Assembly (NCBI GenBank): GCA_022749895.1
Contig: JAKIWS010000007.1
Coordinates: 3,089 to 67,088, forward strand
Source: Thermoplasmata archaeon
GTDB lineage: Archaea; Thermoplasmatota; Thermoplasmata; Lutacidiplasmatales; UBA184
Direction of reading: 5' to 3'
DNA length: 64,000 bases
Positions 5,382 to 58,461 of the stretch are shown here, piece after piece. Below the pieces are notes generated by a model that had not been told where the DNA came from, did not search any database, and saw only the letters and a program-made list of their open reading frames with translations. Both the position numbers and the translations under genes were made by a program. Numbering within the stretch: the first letter of the stretch is position 1; each line of letters starts with the position of its first letter.

Positions 5382-5423
5382 TTCGCTGCCGCTCCCGTCC
5401 GCCACGGCCCGACCTCCGGTGCG

Positions 5424-5936
5424 GTGCCGAGTACGAGGAGACGCGTGGACGACGCTGCGCCGCGGAGTGCCGCGGAAAGCCGGTCGAACGTGGTCCGGCT
5501 CACGTTGCCGACCGACGCGAATTTCATGGGGAACGTCTTCGGGGGCGTGATCTTGGGCGAGATCGACCGCGTGGCGTACGTCACCGCGAGCCGGCACGCC
5601 CGGCAGAACTGTGTCACCGCGTCGTTCGACCGGGTCGACTTCCTGGAGCCGGTCCACGTCGGGCAGCTCCTCGATTTCGAAGGTCTGCTCACGTATGTCG
5701 GGCGGAGCTCGATGGAGGTATCCGTCGACGTTCATTCCGAAGAGCTCACCGGGGGCAATCGCCATCGGGTCGGGCACGCCTACGTGACCATGGTGGCCGT
5801 GGGAAGTGACGGCAAACCCACCCGCGTCCCACCCCTCGCCCAGCCGACGTCCGAAGACCAGCAACGGTTCCGCGAGGGCCGGAAACGGATGGAAGAACGG
5901 GCGCGGACGCGCCCCCCTCCCACGGGCGCCGGCTGA
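5424..5936 (+). CDS. Acyl-CoA thioesterase (HotDog, YciA-like)
   Basis: DANFMGNVFGG, VTASFDRVDFLEPV, GRSSMEV. Confidence 0.9.
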   Translation: MPSTRRRVDDAAPRSAAESRSNVVRLTLPTDANFMGNVFGGVILGEIDRVAYVTASRHARQNCVTASFDRVDFLEPVHVGQLLDFEGLLTYVGRSSMEVSVDVHSEELTGGNRHRVGHAYVTMVAVGSDGKPTRVPPLAQPTSEDQQRFREGRKRMEERARTRPPPTGAG

Positions 5937-10582: not shown

Positions 10583-10682
10583 GCCGACCCGGGGCGCCGG
10601 ATCCGCCATCGCCCGCGGGATGAGGAACGGTGGGGCATTCCCCCGAGGAACGGGGTCCGCCCTACTCGCATGCCAGGGGAGG

Positions 10683-10756
10683 TGCCGCGGGCCGGGCTTG
10701 AACCGGCGGCTTCAAGATCTTCAGTCTTGCACTCTCCCAAACTGAGTTACCGCGGC
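10683..10756 (-). tRNA. tRNA-Phe(GAA)
   Basis: Cloverleaf GCCGCGG...CCGCGGC-A, anticodon loop CTGAAGA, T-loop TTCAAGC; TTTATA box about 27 nt upstream. Confidence 0.95.
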
Positions 10757-26264: not shown

Positions 26265-26337
26265 GCCACTGTAGCTCAGTTGGCAGAGCGGCTGATTCGT
26301 AATCAGCAGGTCGGGGGTTCAAGTCCCTCCAGTGGCT
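26265..26337 (+). tRNA. tRNA-Thr(CGT)
   Basis: GCCACTG...CAGTGGC-T, anticodon loop TTCGTAA, T-loop TTCAAGT. Confidence 0.95.
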
Positions 26338-26480: not shown

Positions 26481-26690
26481 ATGAACACGGTGACGGTTTC
26501 CCCGAAGTACCAGGTGAATCTCCCGAAGCGAGGTCGGGAGGAGCTTCACATTCGGAGGGGGGACAAGTTGGCCGTCATCGTGAAGCACGGGATCCTGAAC
26601 TTCGTCCCTGTCCGGCCGTTCGACCGGACGAAGGGCATGACTCCGGGCTTGGGCACGGCGGACGTTCGAGACAAACACGATCGTGTGTAG
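26481..26690 (+). CDS. vapB: AbrB/MazE-type antitoxin (VapB)
   Basis: VTVSPKYQVNLPK..RE.L.I..GD AbrB pattern. Confidence 0.85.
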   Translation: MNTVTVSPKYQVNLPKRGREELHIRRGDKLAVIVKHGILNFVPVRPFDRTKGMTPGLGTADVRDKHDRV

Positions 26691-26693
26691 GGA

Positions 26694-27077
26694 CTGCTAG
26701 GCGCCGCGATCGCCATCGACAGCCACGGCTGGATTGAGAGGTTTGGCGAGGGGCCGAAGCAATCCCAGTACAATCGTGGGATCGATGCCGCAGCACCGAA
26801 CCAAATACTGACCTCGGTGGCAACGGTCTATGAGGTCTACAAGAAAGTCAAAGCTCTGCGCGGAGAACACGCCGCGTTGGAGGTCGTCGCCGCAATCGGG
26901 CAAACGGTGATCGTCCCCGTCGACCAGGATATCGCTCTCGCAACCGCCGATCTCAGTCTCGAGCATGGCCTTCATTTTTCGGATGCCCTGAGCTACGCAA
27001 CCTCTCGGCGGCACCACGCCGAGCTCGACACCAGCGATCCGGCTCTGAGGCGGCGTCCCGGCGTCCGATTCGTCTGA
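26694..27077 (+). CDS. vapC: PIN-domain toxin VapC (no canonical start before the conserved N-terminus)
   Basis: In-frame IAIDSHGWIE, YEVYK, LHFSDAL.YA, TSD PIN motifs. Confidence 0.75.
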   Translation: MLGAAIAIDSHGWIERFGEGPKQSQYNRGIDAAAPNQILTSVATVYEVYKKVKALRGEHAALEVVAAIGQTVIVPVDQDIALATADLSLEHGLHFSDALSYATSRRHHAELDTSDPALRRRPGVRFV

Positions 27078-52904: not shown

Positions 52905-53006
52905 GTTCGGGTTTGGACCCTCCTCTCCGCCGGCGAGCGGGGCGCGCACGGCGAAGGCTCGTTCCCATAGTTATCTATAAATGGCTATAGTATACTGGTC
53001 GTGACC

Positions 53007-53228
53007 ATGGCCACTACCACGATCCAGCTCACTTCGGCCTTGAAGGGGGAGCTATCAGCGATGAAGATTCACCCTCGAGAAACCTACCAGGAGGTGCTCG
53101 AGCGAGTTCTTGAGGATCTGCGAGAACTGGACTCGAAGACTCGGAAAGAGCTCGCCAAGGCGGAGGCCGAGATTCGGCATGGTCGGTTCGTGAAGCACCA
53201 TGAGCTCGGGGCCAAGCTGGGCGCCTGA
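53007..53228 (+). CDS. RelB-like antitoxin
   Basis: TTIQL...K.EL..MK.HPRETY.EVL; EAEI..G; stop overlaps toxin ATG. Confidence 0.8.
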   Translation: MATTTIQLTSALKGELSAMKIHPRETYQEVLERVLEDLRELDSKTRKELAKAEAEIRHGRFVKHHELGAKLGA

Positions 53229-53476
53229 TGCCCTTTGAGATCATTTGGTCCGATTCCGCGGCGCGCCAACTGCAAAAGCTTGACCGACACGTTGCGCGAC
53301 GTATCTTCGCCAAGGTGGGTGAACTCTCGCACGAACCGTTTCGAAATGTCCGTCGGCTCTCCGGTGAGCCGTACTACCGGCTTCGAGTCGGCGACTACCG
53401 GGTCATCCTCAGAATTCTGGAGTCGGAACTTCAGGTGCTGGTCCTGAAGGTGGGGCTTCGCGAATCGGTTTATTGA
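53228..53476 (+). CDS. relE: RelE/ParE family toxin
   Basis: A.RQL.KLD, YRLRVGDYRVI, VG.R.SVY. Confidence 0.92.
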   Translation: MPFEIIWSDSAARQLQKLDRHVARRIFAKVGELSHEPFRNVRRLSGEPYYRLRVGDYRVILRILESELQVLVLKVGLRESVY

Positions 53477-53542: not shown

Positions 53543-53614
53543 TGGACACGGGGGGATTTGAACCCCCGGCCTCTGCTTTGCGAAAGCAGCGATCTTCCGC
53601 TGATCTACGTGCCC
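53543..53614 (-). tRNA. tRNA-Ala(CGC)
   Basis: GGGCACG...CGTGTCC-A with G3.U70, anticodon loop TTCGCAA, T-loop TTCAAAT. Confidence 0.95.
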
Positions 53615-57030: not shown

Positions 57031-57229
57031 TCCGCATCCCCCGGCATGGGTCGCAATCGGTAGGACCGCTTCGCGGTATATCGTCCTTGACCTCGATTCC
57101 GTTCCCGCGTCGCGTCCCTCGCCCGGCCCCCGTCGCCGCGGTTGCCCCGCGTCGAACCGTGCTCGGCGCGCGGTCGGGGCCGGCGTGCCGCGGCAGGTTT
57201 ATGTGTCCTGCAAAGCTCCCATCGACTGT

Positions 57230-57336
57230 AGCCCCGTAGTGTAGTGGCCAATCATGCGAGACTCTGGATCTCGCGACGCAGGTTCGAACGCTCCGAGGCC
57301 GCGCGACCTCGGTGGCCGGAACTCCTGCCGGGGCTA
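57230..57336 (+). tRNA. tRNA-Gln(CTG) with a 34-nt intron at position 59/60 (57289-57322)
   Basis: AGCCCCG/CGGGGCT-A acceptor (A1-U72), loop CTCTGGA; T-loop interrupted by a BHB (helix TTCG/CGGA, bulges AA^C and AC^T); TTTATG box about 27 nt upstream. Confidence 0.9.
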
Positions 57337-57369
57337 CTCGGGCTCAACCACAGCGCGACGGATCAAAGT

Positions 57370-57514
57370 GCGGGGGTGCTCCAGCTCGGCCAAGCCGCCC
57401 GGTCTCCCGGGCGGGGCCTCCGAGGCAGGGCTTAGAACCCTGTTGCTTAGGGCATGCGCCGGTTCAAAGGGAGCGCGGCCCGCCGCCGCGTTCCGGAGAC
57501 TCCGGCCCCCCGCA
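57370..57514 (+). tRNA. tRNA-Leu(TAG) with two introns (21/22: 57394-57420; 59/60: 57469-57500)
   Basis: GCGGGGG/CCCCCGC-A acceptor, CAGGG-CTTAGAA-CCCTG, long variable arm; both inserts form BHB-type motifs. Confidence 0.88.
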
Positions 57515-57531
57515 TCCGCCGCCCCCCCGCT

Positions 57532-58461
57532 ATGAACCGACCGGTGCGGTTGCCCGACGGGGCGTCGTGGGAGATTCTTCCTCCCTCGGCCATCCTCCGT
57601 CTGGAACCCGAGGGCGCCGACCAACTGCTCGACCGGCTCGAAGCTGGCGTTCCGATCGCTCCGGCACTTGCCGAGATACCCAAGGTTTCGGACGGCACCG
57701 CCTACGTCTTCGGCGACACCCACGGCGACTGGCGCTCGACCGAGGCCGCGGTCGCGCGGTTTTTGCCGGCGCCGCTCACCGACTTCTTGGTCGGACTCGG
57801 CGACTACGTCGACCGCGCCCCGGACGATTGCGCTCAGGGCTCGGTGGCGAACGCGCTCTTTCTCCTCCAGCTCGCGGCCCAATTCCCCGGTCGCGTCCTC
57901 TTAGTGAAGGGCAACCACGAAATGCATCGGATCCTGCCGGTACTTCCGCACGACCTCGACGAAGAGGTCGACACCCTCTGGGGCCCGGACATCCGGCGCT
58001 ACGCCCGGATCGCGGCTCTCCTCGAGCGGGGTCCGCTCGCCGCGGTCACCGACTCGGGGGCCTACCTCGCTCACGCCGGCTTTCCGCGGAACGGGAAGGG
58101 GGCCGACGTGCGGGCCGGCTTCGAGCGGTTGACCGAGGAACAGGTCGTGGACGTCGTGTGGGGCGAGAGTGGCGCCTCGCGTTCCCACCGGGGGGTGTCC
58201 GTCCCGTTCACCGAGCGCGAGCTCAAGGAGTTCCTCACACACGTCGGCGCGAGCGTCTTCGTGCGGGGCCACGACCCGGATCTGGCCGGACGCTCGGTCT
58301 TCGATGACCGCTGCCTGACCCTCCACACGAGCCGGATTCACGAACGGTTCGGAGGGGTCCTGCTGGCCCGGGTCCCGCTCGATACCCGGGTCCGGCATGT
58401 CGCGGACCTCACGATCGAGCACCTCGAGACCGAGGGAAGGGAGTACCCGGCCCCCGACTGA
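57532..58461 (+). CDS. PPP-family Ser/Thr protein phosphatase (metallophosphoesterase)
   Basis: GDTHG, GDYVDR, KGNHE, HAG, RGH; ATG just after tRNA-Leu. Confidence 0.85.
   Translation: MNRPVRLPDGASWEILPPSAILRLEPEGADQLLDRLEAGVPIAPALAEIPKVSDGTAYVFGDTHGDWRSTEAAVARFLPAPLTDFLVGLGDYVDRAPDDCAQGSVANALFLLQLAAQFPGRVLLVKGNHEMHRILPVLPHDLDEEVDTLWGPDIRRYARIAALLERGPLAAVTDSGAYLAHAGFPRNGKGADVRAGFERLTEEQVVDVVWGESGASRSHRGVSVPFTERELKEFLTHVGASVFVRGHDPDLAGRSVFDDRCLTLHTSRIHERFGGVLLARVPLDTRVRHVADLTIEHLETEGREYPAPD

What the first reader, a model, noticed from the sequence alone, without database searches (positions are those of the whole stretch)
57230..57336. tRNA-Gln(CTG) with a T-loop (59/60) intron, in tandem with tRNA-Leu
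Seen: GCAGG-TTCG-AA^C-GC(T)CCGAGG-loop-CCTCGG(TG)GC-CGGA-AC^T-CCTGC has BHB geometry, and splicing restores the T-loop TTCGAAT. It lies 33 nt before the two-intron tRNA-Leu under one TATA box, so the precursor would need three splicing events. Both tRNAs use the 59/60 site but their intron bodies differ. The other three tRNAs in the window have no introns. Inference: local intron gain or spread, possibly protecting T-arm att sites from integrases, since the intron-less tRNA-Ala and tRNA-Thr both have TA modules at their 3' ends.
Basis: partly seen in the sequence, partly recalled or inferred. Interest (0 to 1): 0.8.

Follow-up and report, generated by a model that had tools for sequence, protein, structure and literature searches.

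The report
Split T-loop glutamine tRNA gene
This is a real glutamine tRNA gene of an uncultured acid-soil archaeon, interrupted in its T-loop by a short standard archaeal intron; it is an old trait shared with a third of the genome's tRNA genes, a known kind of intron in a lineage where none had been described.

Summary
Observation confirmed. Window 57230-57336 is tRNA-Gln(CUG) with a 34-nt intron (57289-57322) at 59/60 in a strict 3-4-3 bulge-helix-bulge. Removing it gives a perfect 73-nt cloverleaf. tRNA-Leu(UAG), with D-loop and 59/60 introns, follows after 33 nt.

The same Gln+Leu pair is in 22 of 22 full-length genus loci. Exons are nearly invariant, intron bodies vary and the BHB helices stay paired. 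A TATA-like box is conserved only upstream of Gln.

It is not a local gain. This 2.0-Mb genome (Thermoplasmata, Lutacidiplasmatales-like) has 14 tRNA genes with 59/60 introns among 43 found. The intron-bearing Gln occurs in 6 of 7 genera sampled in the family. The genome encodes one alpha'2-type splicing endonuclease, with no insert in its catalytic unit relative to A. fulgidus EndA, and RtcB.

The integrase-protection idea is the published Randau-Soll hypothesis. Repeats of tRNA 3' ends beside integrases start in the T-loop at intronless Gln(UUG), Thr(CGU) and Ala(CGC). None were seen at 8 intron-bearing tRNAs. However, most blindly picked intronless tRNAs also show none, and an intronless Gln(CUG) in a sister genus is unoccupied. 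The idea stays open.

Splicing is not shown. This scan reported the same Gln/Leu genes on four other genomes.

The parts
57198..57205 (+). TATA-like box (TTTATGTG), first T at -32 from the tRNA-Gln 5' end
   Evidence: Sequence. A TATA-like box (mostly TTTATCAA) sits at the same distance in 22 of 22 genus loci. Promoter activity is inferred.
57230..57288 (+). tRNA-Gln(CUG) 5' exon, nucleotides 1-59
   Evidence: nearly invariant in 21 aligned genus sequences.
57289..57322 (+). 34-nt BHB intron at 59/60 of tRNA-Gln(CUG)
   Evidence: MFE fold and in-silico splice; BHB recovered by my genome scan; helix counts and RNAalifold consensus.
57323..57336 (+). tRNA-Gln(CUG) 3' exon, nucleotides 60-73; no CCA encoded
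   Evidence: The exact 14-mer is present in 104 of 121 genus genomes.
57337..57369 (+). 33-nt spacer without a TATA-like element
   Evidence: Spacers of 27-36 nt, variable and C/T-rich, in 22 loci.
57370..57393 (+). tRNA-Leu(UAG) exon 1
57394..57420 (+). 27-nt D-loop BHB intron of tRNA-Leu(UAG) (central helix GGCC/GGCC, bulges AA|G and TC|C)
   Evidence: BHB scan hit with 4 central pairs, 3 outer and 8 inner; spliced product folds as tRNA-Leu.
57421..57468 (+). tRNA-Leu(UAG) exon 2
57469..57500 (+). 32-nt 59/60 intron of tRNA-Leu(UAG); central helix has 3 pairs plus an A57.G mismatch
57501..57514 (+). tRNA-Leu(UAG) exon 3
26265..26337 (+). intron-less tRNA-Thr(CGU)
   Evidence: 71 bits.
26481..27077 (+). 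MazE/AbrB-like antitoxin ORF (26481-26690) and PIN-domain toxin reading frame (26697-27077) downstream of tRNA-Thr
   Evidence: Pfam PF04014 (21 bits, below its cut-off) and PF01850 (44 bits).
53001..53476 (+). DUF7557 ORF (53001-53228) and ParE/RelE-family toxin ORF (53228-53476) next to the 3' end of tRNA-Ala
   Evidence: Pfam PF24434 (19.6 bits, below its cut-off) and PF05016 (45.4 bits).
53543..53614 (-). intron-less tRNA-Ala(CGC)
   Evidence: 68 bits.

Best explanation
A functional archaeal tRNA-Gln(CUG) gene carries a 34-nt intron between T-loop nucleotides 59 and 60. The T-stem, the first four T-loop bases paired with the intron's CGGA, and an intron hairpin form a strict 3-4-3 bulge-helix-bulge. 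This mirrors the anticodon-arm structure of ordinary 37/38 introns. Most likely Gln and the neighbouring tRNA-Leu(UAG) are transcribed together from the one TATA-like box upstream of Gln. The genome's single homodimer-type (alpha'2) splicing endonuclease would cut in the two bulges of each of the three BHBs. RtcB would join the exons. RNase P, RNase Z and CCA addition would finish the tRNAs. The intron is an old, vertically inherited feature of this Lutacidiplasmatales-like family. It is one of at least 14 T-loop introns in this genome, not a local event. Its sequence is free to drift as long as the BHB forms. I think it most likely persists as a tolerated insertion that is hard to lose, with no proven benefit. 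Shown here: gene anatomy, conservation, retained pairing, presence of the enzymes. Inferred: co-transcription, cleavage sites, splicing in vivo, neutrality.
For: Anatomy and in-silico splice. Only one Gln(CUG) gene was found in the genome, so it should be needed. Conservation: Gln+Leu with all three introns in 22 of 22 full-length genus loci; a match at E <= 1e-5 in 115 of 120 genus genomes, most listed matches covering query 1-107. Alignment of 21 sequences (18 distinct; the locus of the unpublished genome was left out): exons nearly invariant, intron variable, length fixed at 34 nt. T-stem and central helix are paired in 100% of cells. The central helix keeps pairing through U-A/U-G changes on the intron side. 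Two of the three inner-helix pairs show changes on both sides. 98.8% of cells are paired against 20-49% when partners are slid. RNAalifold finds the same BHB unaided. Promoter: a TATA-like box at -33..-24 in 22 of 22 loci and none in the spacers. Enzymes: one 353-aa ORF with two N-terminal and two catalytic endonuclease domains. It aligns end to end with A. fulgidus EndA (1R0V, E 1e-26). Its catalytic Tyr-to-His stretch is 3 residues shorter than in A. fulgidus, so there is no insert there. RtcB scores 579 bits. Genome-wide: 13 T-loop introns by scan plus Ser(GGA) by anticodon search, 14 of 43 tRNA genes. Family-wide: intron-bearing Gln in genera g1, g15, g17, g18, g19 and g20.
Against: No RNA evidence of splicing or of a dicistronic precursor. 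Four metatranscriptome runs each gave one contig over relatives' Gln gene with the intron still in it. Three of these contigs run upstream through the TATA region, so they may be DNA or read-through. No joints were seen. The literature states that alpha4 and alpha'2 enzymes need a strict hBHBh' motif and links non-canonical introns to other enzyme types (PMC3239211 and PMC5829648, passages read). Gln fits the strict motif. But 6 of the 13 scanned T-loop introns, Leu's included, have an A.G mismatch in the 4-bp helix, and Ser(GGA) has a weak inner helix. Cleavage of these by this enzyme is untested. The genome is 83% complete, so a second endonuclease subunit could be unassembled. Neutrality is a default, not a result.
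Confidence: 0.85

Rival explanations
1. The T-loop introns are kept by selection because they break the sequence that tRNA-targeting integrases of this lineage use as attachment site (Randau-Soll hypothesis; the reader's idea).
For: In this genome the intron-less tRNA-Gln(UUG) (contig C85, outside the window) is followed by four direct repeats of its own 3' part. They start at T-loop positions 55-58 and run to nucleotide 73 or beyond. They enclose a tyrosine integrase, a PIN toxin and a methyltransferase in DNA of lower G+C (58-65% against 66-70%). Across 121 genus genomes the Gln(UUG) 3' 14-mer is present in 95. It has 2 or more copies in 37, 3 or more in 15, and same-contig same-strand arrays in at least 25; the reversed-pattern control gave 2 hits. 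Thr(CGU): 11 of 102 genomes with 2 or more copies, 7 with same-contig pairs (6 without the unpublished G109). Ala(CGC): 9 of 103, 4 with same-contig pairs. Identity blocks start at positions 56-60, so 59/60 lies inside most cores. Intron-bearing genes show no same-contig same-strand pair within 60 kb: Gln(CUG) 0 of 104, Leu(UAG) 0 of 105, Asp(GUC) 0 of 66, Arg(UCG) 0 of 8; and in a 5-genome panel Ala(GGC) 0 of 5, Arg(UCU) 0 of 1, Asn(GUU) 0 of 4, Gly(UCC) 0 of 3.
Against: Gln(UUG) was chosen after I saw its repeats. Intron-less tRNAs picked without prior evidence show nothing or little: Val(GAC) 0 of 64, Ala(UGC) 0 of 4, Cys(GCA) 0 of 3, Gly(CCC) 0 of 5. Arg(CCG) has one unresolved pair in 1 of 4 genomes. 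That makes 3-4 of 8 intron-less against 0 of 8 intron-bearing, which is not significant, and related genomes are not independent. In genus g16 the intron-less Gln(CUG) shares its last 23 nt with Gln(UUG). Repeats there sit at Gln(UUG) (2 of 4 genomes) and never at Gln(CUG) (0 of 4), so target choice is locus-specific. Two Ala cores and, less cleanly, two Thr cores start at position 60, so a 59/60 intron would leave them whole. tRNA-His, an intron-bearing gene, has a 15-nt direct repeat of its last intron base plus 3' exon 2.5 kb downstream (unexplained).
Confidence: 0.25
2. The 59/60 introns began as scars of integration. An element integrates with a core that starts at or near position 60. 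A later deletion leaves a short piece of element DNA between nucleotide 59 and the downstream copy of nucleotides 60-73. That piece survives only if it can form a BHB.
For: Identity blocks of the repeats begin at T-loop positions 55-60, in two Ala cases exactly at 60, the intron's 3' boundary. All 14 T-loop introns sit at the same site. Introns differ among genera: Leu is intron-less in g17 and carries two introns in g1.
Against: No intermediate was seen. Intron bodies show no likeness to each other (best pair score 9; 23 of 200 shuffles reach it). I did not compare them with element sequences. 59/60 is also the T-arm equivalent of 37/38, which explains the site by structure alone. The site is used in unrelated archaea such as ARMAN-2 (PMC3239211).
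Confidence: 0.08
3. The locus is a decaying or untranscribed pseudogene, or an assembly artefact.
For: No direct RNA evidence. ARAGORN and Rfam do not call it correctly.
Against: Exons are nearly invariant and the BHB is retained while the intron body diverges, in 21 independent assemblies. The 3' exon is present in 104 of 121 genus genomes. It is the only Gln(CUG) gene found in this genome.
Confidence: 0.02

Closest known systems
59/60 introns of Candidatus Micrarchaeum acidiphilum ARMAN-2: pre-tRNA-Cys(GCA) and pre-tRNA-Pro(GGG) (Fujishima et al. 2011, PMC3239211; passages read)
   Same: Same insertion site in the T-loop. Pro(GGG) there forms a strict hBHBh' as Gln does here. Removal is by the protein splicing endonuclease.
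   Different: ARMAN-2 has a three-unit epsilon2 enzyme with a specificity loop, and its Cys intron is a relaxed 13-nt motif. This genome has an alpha'2 enzyme with no insert in the catalytic unit relative to A. fulgidus EndA, and 14 genes use the one site. The 13-14-nt 59/60 inserts I saw in two A+T-rich relatives of the same order resemble the ARMAN-2 Cys case more closely.
Multi-intron and non-canonical-intron tRNA genes of Thermoproteales and other archaea with (alpha-beta)2 endonucleases (as summarised in PMC3239211 and PMC5829648, passages read; named genera and primary papers are recalled, not read)
   Same: Up to three BHB introns per gene, D-loop and T-loop positions, and a large share of interrupted genes.
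   Different: Those lineages have heterotetrameric enzymes with the crenarchaeal loop and many relaxed motifs. Intron spread by transposition was reported there (recalled). Here I found no sequence likeness among introns.
Canonical 37/38 BHB introns of Euryarchaeota (tRNA-Trp, tRNA-Met and others)
   Same: Identical 3-4-3 motif and enzyme type. This genome also has them in Met, Leu(UAA), Tyr and Trp.
   Different: The position: the T-arm stands in for the anticodon arm.
Randau and Soll 2008 hypothesis that tRNA gene disruption blocks integration of mobile elements (read only as cited in review PMC4090602, section 14)
   Same: Integrases here do use the T-loop-to-3'-end segment.
   Different: The published examples concern anticodon-loop introns and Sulfolobus SSV viruses. 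Here the site is 59/60, and the data neither confirm nor exclude an effect.

Membership tests
Archaeal BHB (hBHBh') tRNA intron | Two 3-nt bulges separated by a 4-bp helix | tested here: met
   TTCG/CGGA with bulges AA|C and AC|T. The helix is paired in 100% of cells in 18 distinct sequences.
Archaeal BHB (hBHBh') tRNA intron | Flanking helices on both sides of the bulges | tested here: met
   5-bp T-stem outside, 9-bp hairpin inside. First three inner pairs are 88.9% paired with two compensatory pairs.
Archaeal BHB (hBHBh') tRNA intron | Excision at the bulges restores a canonical tRNA | tested here: met
   73-nt tRNA-Gln(ctg) with T-loop TTCGAAT. This is in silico only.
Archaeal BHB (hBHBh') tRNA intron | Splicing endonuclease and RtcB ligase encoded by the organism | tested here: met
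   EndA PF01974 twice and PF02778 twice in one 353-aa ORF; RtcB 579 bits.
Archaeal BHB (hBHBh') tRNA intron | Intron removed in vivo | tested here: inconclusive
   Contigs of four RNA runs hold the unspliced form, possibly from DNA; no joints.
alpha'2 (homodimeric) splicing endonuclease | One polypeptide with two tandem endonuclease repeats and no separate beta subunit | tested here: met
   Domain order N-C-N-C and an end-to-end alignment to A. fulgidus EndA. It is the only PF01974 locus in an 83%-complete genome.
alpha'2 (homodimeric) splicing endonuclease | No specificity loop (L1/L2 near the catalytic His, L3 near the C-terminus) | tested here: met
   The Tyr-to-His stretch is 3 residues shorter than in A. 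fulgidus and the catalytic unit has no other gap. The N-terminal unit has about 14 extra residues of unknown meaning.
Dicistronic tRNA transcription unit | A promoter upstream of the first gene only | tested here: met
   TATA-like box in 22 of 22 loci and none in the 27-36-nt spacers. In genus g15 Leu lies about 115 nt away behind its own TTTATA.
Dicistronic tRNA transcription unit | A transcript spanning both genes | tested here: inconclusive
   No laid contig reaches from Gln into Leu.
Intron as anti-integration device (Randau-Soll) | Integrases of the lineage use a tRNA segment that the intron would split | tested here: met
   Repeats start at positions 55-58 (Gln UUG) and 56-60 (Thr, Ala). 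A few start at or about position 60 and would not be split.
Intron as anti-integration device (Randau-Soll) | Intron presence and occupancy anti-correlated across tRNA genes | tested here: inconclusive
   3-4 of 8 intron-less against 0 of 8 intron-bearing tRNAs, with biased picks and related genomes. The g16 control points the other way.
Intron as anti-integration device (Randau-Soll) | An intron lowers recombination at the site | not testable with these tools
   Needs an integrase assay.

The most novel reading that the evidence does not exclude
In this family of soil Thermoplasmata the 59/60 site became a lineage-wide intron hot spot (14 of 43 tRNA genes) because it coincides with the 5' edge of the attachment cores used by the family's tRNA-targeting integrases. 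Introns either arise from integration scars or are retained because they split those cores. All of them are handled by a plain alpha'2 endonuclease that was thought unsuited to non-canonical introns. With more than 100 genomes and genera that differ in intron state (g16 no Gln intron; g17 no Leu introns), this would make the Randau-Soll hypothesis directly testable.
Probability: 0.15. Interest if true: 0.75.

Novelty: new member of a known kind. Interest (0 to 1): 0.4.

Why it matters
The gene is ordinary biology for archaea, but the setting adds three things.

1. Standard finders fail here. ARAGORN mis-calls Gln and misses Leu, and Rfam scores Gln below threshold. tRNA inventories of these abundant acid-soil archaea made with such tools will look incomplete.

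2. A third of the tRNA genes carry an intron at one non-canonical site, in an organism with a homodimer-type endonuclease that has no insert in its catalytic unit relative to A. fulgidus EndA. Reviews tie non-canonical introns to other enzyme types. Most motifs here are strict, and about half have an A.G mismatch in the central helix. That gives a simple substrate set for testing how strict such enzymes really are.

3. The family holds both intron-bearing and intron-less versions of the same tRNAs, alongside clear integration arrays at tRNA 3' ends. This is the material needed to test the long-standing protection hypothesis properly.

Tried and rejected
- RNA evidence. No run held half or more of the stretch's sampled words. 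Six RNA runs held small shares. The four I laid each gave one contig over relatives' Gln gene, unspliced. Three of these contigs run upstream through the TATA region. There were no joints. This says nothing for or against splicing or co-transcription.
- Intron copying. Pairwise alignment of the 13 scanned intron bodies gave a best score of 9, against a shuffled maximum of 6.5 +/- 1.6. 23 of 200 shuffles reach 9. Gln against Leu scores 3. There is no sign of recent transposition, but bodies diverge so fast within the genus that old events would be erased.
- Generic T-arm covariance model for a class-wide census. MAFFT put the two T-loop classes (TTCG and TTCA) one column out of register at the 3' helix strand (alignment A2). 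I built no model, so no class-wide count exists.
- 14-mer copy counts alone. The extra copies of the Asp(GUC) 3' exon (13 of 66 genomes with 2 or more copies) proved to be unrelated coding-like DNA sharing only the 14-mer; this held for 7 of 13 places examined, the other 6 being the tRNA genes themselves. I therefore counted only same-contig, same-strand pairs within 60 kb.
- Arg(UCG) and Arg(UCU) 3' exons are poorly conserved (8 of 121 and 1 of 5 genomes), so they carry little information.
- 16S rRNA was not found in this assembly. The lineage is named from record titles of the closest EndA loci: 'Thermoplasmata archaeon AcS5-107' at 90% identity and 'Candidatus Lutacidiplasmatales archaeon GcC5-34' at 66%.
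- ARAGORN with unlimited intron length gave many false tRNAs with introns of hundreds of bases. I ignored these.
- Prior reports. Sheridan et al. 2022 (PMC9287336) has no occurrence of 'intron' in its main text. Its supplements, which may list tRNA counts, were not seen. A search for Thermoplasmata + tRNA intron + non-canonical found 6 papers, none on this lineage by title or abstract.
Full report
**1. The observation.**

- Nucleotides 1-59 of a tRNA-Gln(CUG) end in GCAGG-TTCGAA.
- A 34-nt insert follows (57289-57322).
- Then comes T-CCTGC-CGGGGCT-A.

Removing the insert in a script gives a 73-nt sequence. ARAGORN folds it as tRNA-Gln(ctg) with a 7-bp acceptor stem (A1-U72), a 5-bp T-stem and T-loop TTCGAAT.

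The minimum-energy fold of the T-arm plus insert is the textbook archaeal splice motif:
- outer helix: the T-stem;
- central helix: 4 bp, TTCG/CGGA;
- two 3-nt bulges, AA|C and AC|U;
- inner hairpin: 9 bp with one bulged U.

It is the T-arm copy of the structure that 37/38 introns form with the anticodon arm.

Unaided tools fail on it:
- ARAGORN calls a wrong 77-nt gene at 57228-57304.
- Rfam's tRNA model reaches 26.9 bits, below its 29-bit threshold.

**2. The neighbour.**

tRNA-Leu(UAG) starts 33 nt downstream and runs 57370-57514. It has two introns:
- a 27-nt D-loop intron (57394-57420; central helix GGCC/GGCC);
- a 32-nt 59/60 intron (57469-57500), whose central helix has three pairs and an A57.G mismatch.

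Removing both gives an 86-nt tRNA-Leu(tag) with a long variable arm. Neither ARAGORN nor Rfam reports this gene.

The three other tRNAs of the window are intact:
- Phe, 10681-10756 (-);
- Thr, 26265-26337 (+);
- Ala, 53543-53614 (-).

**3. Whose genome.**

The assembly holds 2.02 Mb in 106 contigs at 68.7% G+C, and is 83% complete. No 16S gene was found.

The public loci closest to its splicing endonuclease are titled:
- 'Thermoplasmata archaeon AcS5-107', 90% identity;
- 'Candidatus Lutacidiplasmatales archaeon GcC5-34', 66% identity.

The paper that named that order gives about 69% G+C and about 2.1 Mb for its genomes. It does not use the word 'intron' in its main text (PMC9287336, passages read; supplements not seen).

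**4. Conservation.**

Genus level, loci read:
- A DNA search of 40 relatives found the whole Gln-spacer-Leu stretch at 77-83% identity in 21 further genus genomes.
- All 22 loci, this genome's included, have the Gln gene with a 34-nt intron.
- All 22 have the Leu gene with a D-loop intron and a 32- or 35-nt T-loop intron.
- One of these loci (L007) belongs to a genome flagged unpublished. I left it out of the alignment.

Alignment of the other 21 sequences (107 ungapped columns, 18 distinct):
- Exons are nearly invariant; the intron varies.
- T-stem and central helix are paired in every sequence.
- The central helix keeps pairing through A/G changes on the intron side.
- Two of the first three inner-helix pairs show compensatory changes.
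- 98.8% of cells pair, against 20-49% when partners are slid by 1-3 columns.
- RNAalifold, given no structure, returns the same BHB.

Family level (151 genomes):
- 115 of 120 genus genomes match at E <= 1e-5.
- Most of the listed matches cover query positions 1-107.

**5. One promoter.**
- In 22 of 22 loci a TATA-like box lies 24-33 nt upstream of Gln. It is mostly TTTATCAA and is TTTATGTG in the window at 57198-57205.
- A conserved purine-rich stretch precedes it.
- The 27-36-nt spacers are variable, C/T-rich and hold no such box.
- A spacer this short cannot carry a promoter at the usual distance. Co-transcription is therefore the likely reading, but it remains inferred.

**6. Not local.**

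How I scanned the genome:
- I listed BHB motifs across the genome (138,747 candidates).
- I removed every set of up to three neighbouring candidates in silico: 1,249,168 sets, of which 66,912 kept a T-loop motif.
- I ran ARAGORN on the products.
- A second scan, anchored on T-stem and acceptor pairing, gave 13 genes with an insert right after TTCRAA (the same 13 under relaxed rules).

Genes with a 59/60 intron:
- The 13 from the scans are Arg(UCU), Ala(GGC), Ser(GCU), Lys(UUU), Asp(GUC), His(GUG), Glu(CUC), Gly(UCC), Ser(CGA), Arg(UCG), Asn(GUU), Gln(CUG) and Leu(UAG).
- Their introns are 26-38 nt long.
- Lys(UUU), like Leu, also has a D-loop intron.
- An anticodon search found a fourteenth, Ser(GGA), with a weaker inner helix.

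Census of 43 tRNA genes:

| Class | Genes |
|---|---|
| Intron-less | 23 |
| 59/60 intron (two also with a D-loop intron) | 14 |
| Canonical 37/38 intron: Met, Leu(UAA), Tyr, Trp | 4 |
| D-loop intron candidates: Arg(GCG), Pro(UGG) | 2 |

Fourteen of 43 are split at 59/60, and 20 of 43 are interrupted.

The 13 scanned intron bodies are not alike beyond composition.

**7. How old.**

Within the family (seven genera sampled):

| Genus | tRNA-Gln(CUG) | tRNA-Leu(UAG) |
|---|---|---|
| g1 | 34-nt 59/60 intron | adjacent, D-loop + 59/60 introns |
| g15 (1 locus read) | 31-nt 59/60 intron | about 115 nt away, behind its own TTTATA, with a D-loop intron |
| g16 (4 of 4 genomes) | intron-less, 73 nt | not adjacent |
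| g17 (3 loci read) | 33-35-nt 59/60 intron | follows after 6-9 nt, intron-less |
| g18, g19, g20 | full-length intron-bearing match | not examined |

Elsewhere:
- Another family of the same order (three A+T-richer genomes) has Gln(CUG) with a 159-384-nt intron in the anticodon loop and an intact T-loop.
- A third family (two genomes of about 31% G+C) has a 16-22-nt anticodon-loop intron plus a 13-14-nt A-rich insert at 59/60.
- Two genomes of other orders have an intron-less gene.

Intron state therefore changes between genera. The Gln 59/60 intron predates the genus of this window.

**8. The enzymes.**
- The genome has one endonuclease locus, a 353-aa ORF with two N-terminal and two catalytic domains.
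- It aligns end to end with the homodimeric A. fulgidus enzyme (1R0V, E 1e-26).
- Between the catalytic Tyr and His it is three residues shorter than that enzyme. It therefore has no insert at the place where the specificity loops L1/L2 lie, and no other gap in the catalytic unit (loop positions from PMC5829648, section 16, read).
- RtcB is present.

Published work holds that alpha4 and alpha'2 enzymes need the strict 3-4-3 motif. It links non-canonical introns to (alpha-beta)2, epsilon2 or loop-bearing enzymes (PMC3239211 and PMC5829648, passages read).

How the introns here compare:
- Gln and six others of the 13 are strict, so they raise no conflict.
- The six genes with a TTCAAA T-loop place A57 opposite G.

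Whether this enzyme cuts those six is an open, easily tested question.

**9. The protection idea.**

This is the hypothesis of Randau and Soll (2008), which I read only as cited in the review PMC4090602.

- They hold: tRNA-Thr is followed by a MazE-like/PIN pair, and tRNA-Ala by a DUF7557/ParE pair.
- Neither tRNA has a repeat of its own sequence (13 nt or more) elsewhere on this 68.5-kb contig.

A clear integration site outside the window:
- On contig C85 the intron-less tRNA-Gln(UUG) is followed by four direct repeats of its 3' part.
- The repeats start at T-loop positions 55-58.
- They enclose a tyrosine integrase, a PIN protein and a methyltransferase, in DNA of lower G+C.

Copies of each tRNA's last 14 nt in genus genomes. 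I counted only same-contig, same-strand pairs within 60 kb, because single extra copies proved to be chance matches.

| tRNA | Intron at 59/60 | How picked | Genomes with the 14-mer | With such a pair |
|---|---|---|---|---|
| Gln(UUG) | no | after seeing its repeats | 95 | at least 25 |
| Thr(CGU) | no | reader flagged cargo | 102 | 7 (6 without unpublished G109) |
| Ala(CGC) | no | reader flagged cargo | 103 | 4 |
| Val(GAC) | no | blind | 64 | 0 |
| Ala(UGC) | no | blind, 5-genome panel | 4 | 0 |
| Cys(GCA) | no | blind, 5-genome panel | 3 | 0 |
| Gly(CCC) | no | blind, 5-genome panel | 5 | 0 |
| Arg(CCG) | no | blind, 5-genome panel | 4 | 1, unresolved |
| Gln(CUG) | yes | the finding | 104 | 0 |
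| Leu(UAG) | yes | its neighbour | 105 | 0 |
| Asp(GUC) | yes | my choice | 66 | 0 |
| Arg(UCG) | yes | my choice | 8 | 0 |
| Ala(GGC) | yes | blind, 5-genome panel | 5 | 0 |
| Arg(UCU) | yes | blind, 5-genome panel | 1 | 0 |
| Asn(GUU) | yes | blind, 5-genome panel | 4 | 0 |
| Gly(UCC) | yes | blind, 5-genome panel | 3 | 0 |

Where the repeats start:
- The identity blocks start at positions 55-60.
- An intron at 59/60 would split most of them.
- It would not split the few that start at or about position 60.

**10. Why this does not settle it.**
- Three of the four positive tRNAs were not chosen blindly.
- Among blind picks there is no difference between the two classes.
- Related genomes share inherited arrays, so genome counts overstate the evidence.
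- Genus g16 gives a natural control. Its intron-less Gln(CUG) has the same last 23 nt as its Gln(UUG). Repeats lie next to Gln(UUG) in 2 of 4 genomes and never next to Gln(CUG). Target choice depends on more than the core.
- The intron-bearing tRNA-His of this genome has a 15-nt direct repeat of its last intron base plus 3' exon 2.5 kb downstream. I could not explain it.

I rate protection at about one in four. An origin of the introns as integration scars is much less likely.

**11. RNA data.**
- No public run held half or more of the stretch's sampled words.
- The four metatranscriptome runs I laid each gave one contig over relatives' Gln gene, with the intron in place.
- Three of these contigs run into the upstream TATA region.
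- No joint was seen.
- Contigs from RNA libraries can come from DNA, and mature tRNAs are poorly captured. This is no evidence either way.

**12. Verdict.**

- It is a known kind of archaeal intron (59/60, strict BHB).
- It sits in a lineage for which my searches found no report.
- This scan has already reported the same Gln and Leu genes on four other genomes, and a T-loop-split tRNA-Ser on this one.

Its protection idea is published and stays open.

- the genome-wide count of 14 of 43;
- the plain alpha'2 endonuclease;
- the differences between genera;
- the integration arrays whose cores begin in the T-loop.

Noticed in passing
outside the window: G000 contig C85:15020-20544 (locus L130:1021-6545): Intron-less tRNA-Gln(UUG) is followed by four direct repeats of its 3' 14-18 nt. 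They enclose a tyrosine integrase (367 aa), a PIN toxin, a SAM methyltransferase and several ORFs without Pfam hits, at lower G+C. This looks like a stack of small integrated elements. The same tRNA carries such arrays in at least 25 of 95 genus genomes.
   Followed up: yes
loci L113, L116, L117 (genomes G025, G030, G027; another family of the same order): tRNA-Gln(CUG) there has a 159-384-nt intron in the anticodon loop, built of repeated structured units (GGAACCC..TTTTCAGGG and GGGTACCGTAAGG-like hairpins). Its content and function are unknown.
   Followed up: no
loci L114 and L118 (genomes G026, G028; about 31% G+C, same order): tRNA-Gln(CUG) has a 16-22-nt anticodon-loop intron plus a 13-14-nt A-rich insert at 59/60 that is too short for an inner helix, like the relaxed ARMAN-2 tRNA-Cys intron. 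I did not check which endonuclease type these genomes have.
   Followed up: no
loci L165, L167, L168 (genus g17) and L161-L164 (genus g16): Intron state differs between genera of one family. g17 has the Gln T-loop intron but an intron-less tRNA-Leu 6-9 nt downstream. g16 has an intron-less Gln(CUG) with no Leu beside it.
   Followed up: partly
G000 contig C41:2893-2907 and 5417-5522: A 15-nt direct repeat of the last intron base plus the 3' exon of the intron-bearing tRNA-His lies 2.5 kb downstream of the gene. No integrase hit lies on that contig. It may be chance (the 3' exon is itself an internal repeat) or an old attachment site.
   Followed up: partly
loci L185-L187, L189 (relatives G051, G071, G072, G011): The DNA just upstream of the second copy of the tRNA-Thr and tRNA-Ala 3' ends shares a GAACCCTT(T)A motif about 10 nt before the repeat. 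This suggests one family of integrative elements using different tRNAs.
   Followed up: no
window 57515-57535: A calcineurin-like phosphoesterase ORF (Pfam PF00149) has an ATG at 57533, 19 nt after the tRNA-Leu 3' end on the same strand, with no TATA-like box between. It may be transcribed with the tRNAs.
   Followed up: no
G000 contig C28 (locus L032:1158-2219): The N-terminal (structural) repeat of the EndA protein has about 14 residues more than A. fulgidus EndA (query residues about 98-125 in the alignment). Its meaning for substrate choice is unknown.
   Followed up: no
G000 contig C19:59128-59294 (-): tRNA-Trp(CCA) has a 91-nt intron at 37/38 by ARAGORN. My BHB criteria did not recover it. 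In haloarchaea the Trp intron carries a C/D-box guide RNA (recalled, and stated in review PMC4090602); I did not check this here.
   Followed up: no
G046:C1:613773-616135 (locus L191): Two same-strand copies of the tRNA-Arg(CCG) 3' 14-mer, with 3 matching bases before and 1 after, lie 2.35 kb apart near a contig end. Neither copy is the tRNA gene itself.
   Followed up: partly
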